Positions 4,065 to 5,094 of a stretch of 13,699 bases of DNA are shown here, piece after piece. Made by a program: the position numbers and the translations under genes. The DNA lies in IMG/VR virus record IMGVR_UViG_2537561934_000011. One strand, given 5' to 3'. The notes below the pieces were generated by a model. The model searched no databases and was not told the DNA's origin. It worked only from the letters and a program-made list of their open reading frames with translations. The stretch is from a virus. Its lineage: Duplodnaviria > Heunggongvirae > Uroviricota > Caudoviricetes. Within the stretch, counting starts at the first letter, position 1. Each line of letters opens with the position of its first letter.

Positions 4065-4366
4065 GCAGCCACCTTCTGCTCAGAGGCTTTCTGTTTCAGG
4101 AATCCAAGAGCTTTCACTGCTTCGGCCTGTGTCAGTTCTGACGATGCGCGAATGTCGCGGCGAAATATCTGGGAACAGAGCGGCAATAAGTCGTCATCCC
4201 ATGTTTTATCCAGGGCAATCAGCAGAGTGTTAATCTCCTGCATGGTTTCATCGTTAACCGGAGTGATGTCGCGTTCCGGCTGACGTTCTGCAGTGTATGC
4301 GGTATTTTCGACAATGCGCTCGGCTTCATCCTTGTCATAGATATAAGTGGCTTCACAACAAAGCAA
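4061..4366 (-). pseudogene. bet: 5'-truncated bet (Red-beta) remnant; only about the C-terminal 95 codons retained
   Basis: From IYDKDEAERIVENTAYTAERQPERDITPVNDETMQEINTLLIALDKTWDDD .. KALGFLKQKA the ORF matches the lambda Bet C-terminus as I recall it. The first 8 or so residues (MLCCEATY) do not, placing a breakpoint near 4340. Lambda Bet is about 261 aa. Confidence 0.8.
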
Positions 4367-4554
4367 AGGTATCCCCTGAACATGTCGGCAGCATTGTTAC
4401 GGCTACTGGTGGAGTAGTGAAGGCATACCAGATTCGCCCGGATCTTCCGAAGTTGTTTCCACACACCGAAAAGAACGCAGCTTAAATTTCCATTTCACGC
4501 TCTTTAACAATAAGCAATCAACTTAACAGTCAATTCAAACTAAAGGAGTCAATT

Positions 4555-5094
4555 ATGCAACTACTTACATACCAACAGACTAGCGGATTTAGCCCGACTG
4601 CGGTGATAAATCGTTCTCAAACAAAACAGGTGCCAGGCCACGAAAAAATCCGTGATGCCGTCCGCGCTTGGTCGGCTGAAGATAATCAGGATGTCGTTGC
4701 CACACTCATTGTGAATGAGTATCGGGAGCAGGGCGGCGGCACTATCGATTTCCCTGATGATGTCAGCCGTGCACGCCAGAAGCTGTTCCGCTTCCTCGAT
4801 AACAAATTCGATTCTGAAAAATACCGAAATAACGTGCGTGAACTGACCCCGGCAATTCTGGCGGTACTACCGCTGGAATATCGCGGCCACCTGGTTGAGC
4901 AGGATAGCTTCATGGCTCGGCTGGCTGAAATGGAAAAGGAACTCTGTGAGGCAAAGCAGGCGGTCATTCTCAACGCACCACGCCACCAGAAACTGAAGGA
5001 GATGAGTGAAGGCATTGTGTCGATGTTTCGAGTGGACCCGGATCTGGCTGGTCCATTGATGGCGATGGTCACCACCATGCTGGGGGCAATATGA
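4555..5094 (+). CDS. YdaT-like lambdoid early-right protein (cII position), 179 aa
   Basis: ATG with SD AAGGAG 7 nt upstream. Motifs EYREQGGG and LTPAILAVLP resemble Rac YdaT as I remember it. Sits immediately upstream of the O-like gene. Confidence 0.5.
   Translation: MQLLTYQQTSGFSPTAVINRSQTKQVPGHEKIRDAVRAWSAEDNQDVVATLIVNEYREQGGGTIDFPDDVSRARQKLFRFLDNKFDSEKYRNNVRELTPAILAVLPLEYRGHLVEQDSFMARLAEMEKELCEAKQAVILNAPRHQKLKEMSEGIVSMFRVDPDLAGPLMAMVTTMLGAI

What the first reader, a model, noticed from the sequence alone, without database searches (positions are those of the whole stretch)
4300..4560. Breakpoint inside bet: the whole immunity and early-left control region is missing
Bet homology stops about 8 codons into the 101-aa ORF (near 4340). 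Within about 200 bp the rightward YdaT-like and O-like genes begin. The genes a lambdoid genome carries between bet and cII/O (gam, kil, cIII, N, repressor, cro) are absent. exo and the bet remnant look lambda-identical while int and the right arm are e14-like, so the element is both mosaic and internally deleted.
Basis: partly seen in the sequence, partly recalled or inferred. Interest (0 to 1): 0.45.

Follow-up and report, generated by a model that had tools for sequence, protein, structure and literature searches.

The report
Deletion scar in decayed icd prophage
This is the scar of a single 3.3-kb deletion, running from inside bet to inside cro, that removed the repressor and early promoters of a lambda-like prophage sitting in the E. 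coli icd gene; this is ordinary prophage decay, and RefSeq already marks both truncated genes as pseudogenes.

Summary
Homology to bet ends at window 4343. Homology to a rightward cro-type gene (YdaS family) starts at 4342, so the two overlap by 2 bp (TA).

E. coli E94 carries the same prophage at the same icd site without the deletion. Removing 3,319 bp from E94 reproduces window 1-5664 with 3 mismatches. The lost segment holds:
- bet codons 1-168
- gam and kil
- two genes of unknown function
- the S24 (CI-like) repressor
- the divergent operator/promoter region
- cro codons 1-29

The identical junction is present in 193 of 5,426 complete E. coli genomes, including strain 042. There PGAP already calls both flanks pseudogenes.

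- cro is not absent; its last 47 codons remain at 4342-4485.
- exo and bet are about 96% identical to lambda, not identical.
- int and the right arm show no nucleotide similarity to e14. IntE is 60% identical in protein, and the cII-like (YdaT) and O genes have no e14 match. Their closest relatives are PhiR47_2-type lambdoid phages.

I found no repressor/cro pair elsewhere in the window, and no phage record is colinear across the junction. Verdict: an ordinary internal deletion in a cryptic prophage, of low interest.

The parts
1..1143 (-). Tyrosine integrase of the icd-integrating lambdoid prophage. It lies next to the left attachment site (attL), which is just outside the window.
   Evidence: Pfam Arm-DNA-bind_1 and Phage_integrase. 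99.5% aa identity to the PhiR47_2 integrase, 60% to e14 IntE, 35% to lambda Int. icd lies immediately upstream in strains 042 and E94.
1133..1369 (-). Excisionase
   Evidence: Pfam Exc; PGAP 'excisionase' in strain 042.
2168..3232 (-). DGQHR / DndB-like cargo gene in the position of lambda orf61/orf63
   Evidence: Pfam DndB, 3e-46. Absent from PhiR47_2 and lambda at this position. Present in 284 E. coli genomes.
3384..4064 (-). Intact lambda-type exonuclease (exo)
   Evidence: 97.3% aa identity to lambda Exo over 226 residues; Pfam YqaJ.
4061..4343 (-). bet remnant: codons 169-261 plus the stop codon. This is the C-terminal domain only; the annealing domain is deleted.
   Evidence: blastn to lambda, PhiR47_2 and E94 ends at 4343. 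Residue numbering. PDB 7UJL covers Bet 1-178 and 8TFU covers 182-261. PGAP: 'Bet, incomplete, missing N-terminus'.
4342..4343 (.). Deletion junction: the dinucleotide TA, shared by both parental sequences
   Evidence: Three-way alignments of the window with the bet side and the cro side of PhiR47_2 and of E94. The junction probe splits at the same place.
4342..4485 (+). cro remnant (YdaS-family Cro-type regulator): codons 30-76 plus the stop codon. The break falls in the predicted recognition helix.
   Evidence: tblastn with PhiR47_2 Cro, residues 30-76, 97.9%. The full-length relative hits Pfam YdaS_toxin 1.7e-16, with weaker P22_Cro and HTH_3 hits. PGAP: 'transcriptional regulator, missing N-terminus'.
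4486..4554 (+). Native cro-cII spacer, colinear with the undeleted relatives
   Evidence: Lies inside the continuous 4342-5664 match to E94 and PhiR47_2.
4555..5094 (+). YdaT-domain protein in the cII position. It is intact but has lost its upstream promoter region.
   Evidence: Pfam YdaT_toxin 2.6e-29. PHROG 163 'CII-like transcriptional activator'. 98.9% identical to the PhiR47_2 gene annotated 'cII'.
5091..5664 (+). Replication protein O, truncated after codon 192 of 339 by IS1
   Evidence: Pfam Phage_rep_O. tblastn with PhiR47_2 O matches residues 1-192. PGAP: 'missing C-terminus'.
5665..6432 (+). IS1 copy marking a second, larger deletion (about 16 kb relative to E94). It has no target-site duplication.
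   Evidence: IS1 ends and flanks. InsA Pfam domains. The right flank resumes at L009 31668 in E94.
12006..12173 (+). Duplicated 3' end of icd (icd') marking the right attachment site (attR), the right end of the element
   Evidence: Coordinates transferred from the PGAP icd' pseudogene of strain 042. 95% identical to the 3' end of the functional icd.

Best explanation
The window carries a decayed lambdoid prophage integrated in the 3' end of icd. At 4342/4343 a single deletion joined the middle of the leftward bet gene (after codon 169, read on the minus strand) to the middle of the rightward cro-type gene (codon 30). The join shares only 2 bp (TA), so it was end-joining or slippage without real homology.

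Relative to the closest undeleted prophage (E. coli E94) exactly 3,319 bp are gone. The lost segment contains the Bet annealing domain, gam, kil, two genes of unknown function, the S24/CI-like repressor, the divergent operator/promoter region between repressor and cro, and the first 29 codons of cro.

Inferred consequences:
- The element has no immunity and no early promoters, so exo, the YdaT-like gene and the O stub have lost their normal transcription.
- It cannot be induced or replicate.
- Because the repressor, both early promoters and kil went in one event, losing repression would not have been lethal.

A second, IS1-associated deletion then removed the DNA from mid-O to the pin region. 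What remains is int/xis, a DndB-like gene, exo and an McrBC-like system. The junction is inherited unchanged in 193 complete genomes.
For: SHOWN:
- Left homology ends at 4343 and right homology starts at 4342, against lambda, PhiR47_2, Esc29, BRG214 and E94.
- Base-level alignments show the TA overlap.
- E94 9853-14195 joined to 17515-18835 equals window 1-5664 with 3 mismatches; 3,319 bp are deleted.
- E94 carries the same protein accessions for int, xis, DUF4222, TraR/DksA, DGQHR, DUF1317 and exo as the remnant in strain 042, at the same icd locus.
- The contents of the deleted segment come from PGAP and PHROGs: gam, Kil, phrog_3556, phrog_4231, phrog_4 repressor, phrog_35 Cro-type.
- The equivalent gap is 3,947 bp in the intact phage PhiR47_2 and 2,565 bp in Esc29.
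- The junction is present in 193 of 5,426 genomes.
- The undeleted bet-to-cro module is present in 197 genomes.
- There are no promoter-like sites between 3512 and 5177.
- There is no other repressor/cro pair in the window.

INFERRED: the mechanism (illegitimate recombination), the loss of transcription, non-inducibility, and the idea that co-deletion of the promoters and kil made loss of the repressor tolerable. The last point rests on established lambda biology, in which derepressed pL expresses kil.
Against: A 2-bp overlap is expected by chance at about 16% of random blunt joins, so it does not identify a mechanism. A multi-step history with the same end state, such as nested deletions or a transient IS, cannot be excluded. 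No expression data were available, and weak or non-sigma-70 promoters would be missed by the consensus scan. E94 is itself defective elsewhere (a terminase-lom deletion), so it is a sister, not the literal ancestor. Whether int/xis can still excise the remnant was not tested.
Confidence: 0.9

Rival explanations
1. The architecture is natural: the element belongs to a phage or satellite lineage that never had gam-kil-repressor-cro between bet and the cII-like gene.
For: None found.
Against: Both genes at the junction are fragments: Bet lacks residues 1-168 and Cro lacks residues 1-29. No phage record of the 276 that match covers 80% or more of 3300-5700. Every relative carrying both flanks has full-length bet, a repressor and cro between them.
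Confidence: 0.01
2. The junction arose by recombination between two different prophages or by a chromosomal rearrangement, or it is an assembly artefact, rather than by a simple deletion within one prophage.
For: E. coli genomes carry several lambdoid prophages with near-identical bet and cro modules (a median of 2 places per genome for the junction probe), so there is substrate for such exchange.
Against: Both flanks are 99.85% identical or better to one contiguous prophage at the same icd locus in E94, in the same order and orientation. The chromosomal flanks (icd on the left; icd', iraM and ycgX on the right) are the normal neighbours. The junction has only 2 bp of identity, so homologous exchange is excluded. 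The identical junction in 193 independently assembled complete genomes excludes an artefact.
Confidence: 0.03
3. The event is the same deletion, but it was selected rather than neutral. On this reading it 'grounded' a prophage whose two ends carry defence-type genes (the DndB-like DGQHR protein and the McrBC-like system), by removing inducibility and the toxic kil gene in one step.
For: The junction is fixed in 193 genomes. The DGQHR and McrBC-like genes are kept intact in strain 042 and in the independently deleted 98-3133 remnant. Independent internal deletions that remove the immunity region occur in relatives: exo to O in 98-3133, and bet to a tail-region gene in 873.10. The general concept of grounded prophages is reviewed in PMC6379469.
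Against: In this very window the McrB-like gene is broken by a second IS1. In STEC1589 the DGQHR gene is frameshifted. 193 near-identical copies may be one young clone, which says nothing about selection. No fitness or defence data exist.
Confidence: 0.2

Closest known systems
Escherichia phage PhiR47_2 (PV340567.1) and the E. coli E94 icd prophage (NZ_CP119740.1)
   Same: They have the same integrase (99.5% aa), xis, exo-bet module, YdaS-type cro, YdaT-type 'cII' and O. Nucleotide identity is 97-99% to PhiR47_2 and 99.85% or more to E94, in the same gene order. In E94 the element sits at the same icd attachment locus and carries the same DGQHR and McrBC-like cargo.
   Different: They keep the 3.3-3.9 kb between bet codon 169 and cro codon 30, and the DNA beyond O codon 192. 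PhiR47_2 lacks the DGQHR gene and carries a GevAT module next to the repressor.
Phage lambda Red region (exo-bet)
   Same: orf60a-exo-bet is 96.3% identical in nucleotides over window 3230-4343, and Exo is 97.3% identical in protein.
   Different: Lambda int (35% aa), O (42% over the N-terminal part), cI, cro, cII, N and cIII have no close counterpart here or in the undeleted relatives. The attachment site also differs.
Cryptic prophage e14 of E. coli K-12
   Same: It occupies the same chromosomal attachment site in icd and leaves a duplicated icd' at the right end. IntE is 60% and XisE 36% identical in protein. A pin-type invertase remnant (57% aa) and a methylation-dependent restriction gene lie next to attR. 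e14 is also a deletion-ridden remnant. That e14 and phage 21 share this attB comes from the literature (PMC12803456, citing Wang et al. 1997).
   Different: There is no nucleotide similarity in int or in the early-right genes. e14 retains its repressor/cro pair (ymfK/ymfT) and carries mcrA rather than an McrBC-like pair. e14 YmfT, YmfL, YmfM and YmfN find nothing in the window.
Rac prophage ydaS-ydaT pair
   Same: The truncated cro-type gene and the next gene belong to the Pfam YdaS and YdaT families, in the same order and orientation.
   Different: The relationship is at family level only and no sequence comparison with Rac was run. Here the YdaS-type gene is a 47-codon stub.

Membership tests
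Lambdoid prophage integrated at the icd (phage 21 / e14) attachment site | A tyrosine integrase and excisionase adjacent to icd, with a duplicated icd 3' end at the far side | tested here: met
   int 1-1143 and xis 1133-1369. icd lies directly upstream in strains 042 and E94. icd' at 12006-12173 is 95% identical to the icd 3' end.
Lambdoid prophage integrated at the icd (phage 21 / e14) attachment site | Lambda-like gene order: int-xis-...-exo-bet-gam-kil-...-repressor / cro-cII-O-P | tested here: met
   The window is colinear with PhiR47_2, Esc29, BRG214 and E94 on both sides of the junction. The middle part is missing here because of the deletion.
Functional (inducible) temperate prophage | A repressor / cro pair with divergent early promoters | tested here: not met
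   There is no repressor anywhere in the window, cro is reduced to codons 30-76, and the operator region is deleted.
Functional (inducible) temperate prophage | Complete replication, lysis and morphogenesis modules | tested here: not met
   O is cut at codon 192 by IS1. Between IS1 and attR there is only a pin remnant and the McrBC-like genes.
e14 element (K-12 type) | Nucleotide-level relatedness to e14 int, cohE/croE and ymfL-N | tested here: not met
   blastn of the window against MG1655 1194500-1214000 hits only pinE (75%) and the chromosomal flank. tblastn gives IntE 60% and XisE 36%, with no hit for YmfK, YmfT, YmfL, YmfM or YmfN.
Lambda Red recombination system (Exo + Bet + Gam) | Full-length Bet with its N-terminal annealing domain, plus Gam | tested here: not met
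   Only Bet 169-261 is retained, whereas the annealing-domain structure 7UJL spans residues 1-178. There is no gam. Exo alone is intact.
IS-mediated adjacent deletion (as the cause of the bet-cro junction) | An IS end sits exactly at the junction | tested here: not met
   The junction is a direct bet/cro join with a TA overlap. The nearest IS1 starts at 5665, 1.3 kb away. That IS1 does mark the separate deletion from O to the pin region.

The most novel reading that the evidence does not exclude
The leftover is not inert. The 101-aa ORF (4061-4366) keeps the whole Bet C-terminal domain, residues 169-261. From memory, this is the part that contacts Exo and SSB in solved structures; here I tested only that PDB 8TFU and 6M9K cover residues 182-261 and 194-260. 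The ORF has acquired a TTG start preceded by an AGGGGA Shine-Dalgarno-like motif from antisense cro, and it still overlaps the start of an intact exo. It could therefore be a retained Exo + Bet-CTD nuclease module working with the neighbouring DndB-like and McrBC-like genes, rather than a pseudogene.
Probability: 0.03. Interest if true: 0.35.

Novelty: already known. Interest (0 to 1): 0.1.

Why it matters
It matters little beyond annotation hygiene. The result gives a base-exact description of one step in the decay of a prophage at icd that is common in E. coli, present in 193 of 5,426 complete genomes including the enteroaggregative reference strain 042. It shows that 4342-4554 is native cro-side sequence rather than foreign DNA. 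It corrects the 'e14-like' label. It also explains why this element can lack a repressor without harm: both early promoters and kil were removed in the same event. The junction could serve as a lineage marker. The independent deletions seen in relatives illustrate the known pattern in which prophage remnants keep cargo genes at their ends while losing the regulatory and lytic core.

Tried and rejected
- Microhomology. Only 2 bp (TA) are shared at the join. The best direct repeat within 40 bp either side of the two breakpoints in E94 is a 7-mer (GGCTTCA) that is not in register with the junction. The chance of an overlap of 2 bp or more is about 0.16. No mechanism can be inferred from this.
- Foreign origin of 4340-4554. 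Rejected, because the stretch is continuous with the cro-cII-O match to E94 and PhiR47_2.
- A new promoter or terminator created at the junction. No sigma-70-like site lies between 3512 and 5177. Two weak terminator-like hairpins near 4288-4302 and 4364-4378 are within the number expected from shuffles.
- Structured RNAs. Rfam at gathering thresholds found nothing in the window or in the E94 locus L007.
- A hidden repressor/cro pair. tblastn with six repressor or Cro proteins and Pfam scans of 19 window ORFs found only the cro stub, IS1 InsA, Xis and a TraR/DksA zinc finger.
- Literature. I found no paper describing this junction. The searches returned only general context on e14, phage 21 and the icd site (PMC12803456) and on grounded prophages (PMC6379469).
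- Failed call. One search failed because the pin remnant has internal stop codons; one search repeated it without that entry.
- Tools not used. The large protein-database, structure-prediction and metagenome tools were not needed.

Full report
**What the window is.** The 13.7-kb window is a prophage remnant in the icd locus of Escherichia coli. It matches E. coli 042 (NZ_CP042934.2) at 99.97-100% over its whole length, apart from one extra IS1. PGAP annotates the following order in strain 042:
- icd, integrase, excisionase, DUF4222, TraR/DksA
- DGQHR-domain protein, DUF1317, lambda exonuclease
- Bet (pseudogene, missing N-terminus)
- transcriptional regulator (pseudogene, missing N-terminus)
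- YdaT-domain protein
- replication protein (pseudogene, missing C-terminus)
- IS1, a recombinase remnant, an AAA ATPase, McrC, and icd'

My own Pfam and PHROG scans of the window ORFs agree with this.

**Checking the observation.** A megablast of 3300-5700 against phage genomes splits cleanly in two. Query positions 1-1044 (window 3300-4343) match exo-bet of many lambdoid phages at 97-99%. Query positions 1043-2365 (window 4342-5664) match 'Cro | cII | O' of PhiR47_2-type phages at 97-98%. No phage record covers 80% or more of the query.

Pairwise blastn gives these figures:

| Comparator | Window segment | Identity |
|---|---|---|
| lambda | 3230-4343 | 96.3% |
| PhiR47_2 | 3230-4343 | 96.9% |
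| PhiR47_2 | 4342-5664 | 98.3% |
| PhiR47_2 | 1-2148 | 98.9% |

Base-level three-way alignments show that the bet side matches through 4343 and the cro side from 4342. Only the dinucleotide TA is shared. A 120-bp probe centred on the junction gives full-length hits in 193 of 5,426 complete genomes. Everywhere else it hits only its bet half (probe 1-61) or its cro half (probe 60-120).

The break is 8 codons into the 101-aa ORF, and the YdaT-like gene starts 211 bp further on.

**The undeleted counterpart.** The DGQHR cargo gene (2149-3229) occurs in 284 genomes, and some of these lack the junction. E. coli E94 (NZ_CP119740.1) has, at the same icd site, the same protein accessions for integrase, excisionase, DUF4222, TraR/DksA, DGQHR, DUF1317 and exonuclease as strain 042. 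These are followed by full-length bet, gam, kil, two hypothetical genes, an S24-peptidase repressor, a 76-aa transcriptional regulator, the YdaT-like gene, O and P. At its far end E94 has the same pin remnant, AAA ATPase, McrC and icd'.

Window 1-4343 equals E94 locus L007 9853-14195 with 1 mismatch. Window 4342-5664 equals L007 17513-18835 with 2 mismatches. Joining L007 9853-14195 to 17515-18835 reproduces window 1-5664 with 3 mismatches in total, so the deletion is 3,319 bp. In the intact phage PhiR47_2 the equivalent interval is 3,947 bp, because it carries GevAT beside the repressor. In the Esc29 prophage it is 2,565 bp.

**What was lost and what is left.** The lost segment contains:
- bet codons 1-168
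- gam (PHROG 259) and kil (PHROG 294)
- two genes of unknown function (PHROG 3556 and 4231)
- the CI-like S24 repressor (PHROG 4)
- the 104-bp repressor-cro intergenic region that must hold the divergent early promoters and operators
- cro codons 1-29

The remaining part of Bet is residues 169-261. Solved structures of Bet cover the annealing domain as residues 1-178 (7UJL) and the C-terminal domain as residues 182-261 (8TFU). The remnant therefore lacks essentially the whole DNA-annealing domain.

The remaining part of Cro is residues 30-76. The full-length protein is a YdaS-family / P22-Cro-like helix-turn-helix protein. The break falls within ...SQQAV|YKWLH..., which is the predicted recognition helix (the helix assignment is my inference).

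The two junction ORFs are chimeras. One is the 101-aa minus-strand ORF. The other is a 62-aa plus-strand ORF at 4297-4485 that fuses 15 antisense-bet codons to Cro 30-76.

**Testing the refutation conditions.**
- A repressor/cro pair elsewhere. tblastn with lambda CI and Cro, PhiR47_2 CI and Cro, e14 YmfK and YmfT, and the BRG214 repressor and Cro found only the Cro stub. Pfam scans of the other ORFs found no helix-turn-helix regulator other than IS1 InsA and Xis.
- An intact phage naturally lacking these genes. None exists in the phage collection. All relatives that have both flanks have complete genes between them.

1. cro is truncated, not absent. Window 4342-4554 is native cro 3' end plus spacer.
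2. exo and bet are lambda-like (96.3% nucleotide identity; Exo 97.3% aa), not identical.
3. The e14 label does not hold. blastn against the MG1655 e14 region finds only pinE (75%) and the chromosomal flank. IntE is 60% and XisE 36% identical. e14 YmfT, YmfL, YmfM and YmfN find nothing. What is shared with e14 is the attachment site. The literature describes this site as common to e14, phage 21 and other lambdoid prophages such as NC-SV (PMC12803456).
4. Lambda N, cIII, cI, cro, kil and cII have no tblastn match in E94, PhiR47_2 or Esc29. Only Gam matches, at about 85%. N and cIII therefore cannot be listed as deleted.

The mosaic character itself is confirmed. For example, strain 027_SK3 combines the same left arm with a lambda-type kil-cIII-sieB-cI-cro-cII region.

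**Mechanism.**
- Shown: a single junction between two non-homologous sequences with a 2-bp overlap and no IS at the join.
- Inferred: illegitimate recombination. A 2-bp overlap is expected at about 16% of random joins, so slippage, end-joining and topoisomerase-type events cannot be told apart.
- Inferred consequences: loss of immunity, of both early promoters and of kil in one step. This silences exo, the YdaT-like gene and the O stub. The consensus scan finds no sigma-70-like promoter between 3512 and 5177. It also makes loss of the repressor tolerable.

A separate lesion truncates O at codon 192. An IS1 at 5665-6432 has no target duplication, and its flanks lie about 16 kb apart in E94. That O::IS1 junction occurs in 195 genomes.

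**Comparison and novelty.** This is textbook decay of a cryptic prophage. Both truncated genes are already flagged by PGAP in RefSeq. The general phenomenon is reviewed under 'grounded prophages' (PMC6379469). Relatives show other, independent internal deletions that also take out the immunity region:
- O157:H16 98-3133 joins exo to O at the same locus.
- Strain 873.10 joins a bet remnant to a tail-region gene in a prophage at tRNA-Thr.

I found no paper describing this particular junction, but it adds no new principle.

**Verdict.** Novelty is 'already known' and interest is low (0.1). The most novel reading I could not exclude is that intact Exo plus the Bet C-terminal-domain ORF forms a retained functional module. 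I put it at about 3%: there is no promoter evidence, and the independent remnants do not consistently keep the same parts.

Noticed in passing
window 5665-6432, with flanks 5656-5664 and 6433-6441: An IS1 truncates the O gene after codon 192 and has no 9-bp target duplication. Its two flanks lie about 16 kb apart in the E94 prophage. This marks a second, IS1-associated deletion that removed P, the nin region, Q, lysis genes, the packaging remnant and tail-fibre genes. The O::IS1 junction is in 195 genomes, against 193 for the bet-cro junction.
   Followed up: partly
window 8881-9648 (target duplication at 8872-8880 and 9649-9657): A second IS1 lies in the opposite orientation, is only 91.4% identical to the first, and has a clean 9-bp duplication (ATTGAAGAG). 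It splits the McrB-like AAA_5 ATPase gene (7459-10191). It is absent from strains 042 and E94, so the McrBC-like system is inactivated in this window's strain specifically. No complete genome in the collection matched the whole window in one contiguous piece.
   Followed up: partly
window 2168-3232: A DGQHR / DndB-like gene (Pfam DndB, 3e-46; PHROG 7901, unknown function) sits as a solitary cargo gene where lambda has orf61/orf63. It is 99% or more identical in 284 E. coli genomes. It occurs on different prophage backbones and attachment sites (icd; tRNA-Thr; next to torI/dsdC) and is frameshifted in STEC1589.
   Followed up: partly
L008 (O157:H16 98-3133) 13236-14350; L012 (strain 873.10) 10913-11450: Related prophages show independent internal deletions that also remove the immunity region. 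In 98-3133 exo is joined to the 3' part of O at the same icd locus. In 873.10 a 339-nt bet remnant is joined to a tail-region gene.
   Followed up: partly
L007 (E94) 15283-15833, and the equivalent stretches in L001 and L005: Undeleted relatives with this YdaS/YdaT-type immunity region have about 550 bp between kil and the next annotated gene. This stretch has no ORF of 40 aa or more, no lambda-type N or cIII by tblastn, and no Rfam hit. How these phages achieve early antitermination, if they do, is not evident.
   Followed up: partly
window 4367-4378 (minus strand) and 4061-4366: The antisense cro sequence happens to supply an AGGGGA Shine-Dalgarno-like motif about 6 nt upstream of the TTG start. 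This leaves the Bet C-terminal domain (169-261) as an open 101-aa ORF still overlapping the exo start. No promoter was found for it.
   Followed up: partly
window 6662-7108: This is a remnant of a pin-type DNA invertase, 57% aa and 75% nt identical to e14 PinE, with internal stop codons. E94 carries it in the same degraded state, so this decay predates both deletions.
   Followed up: no
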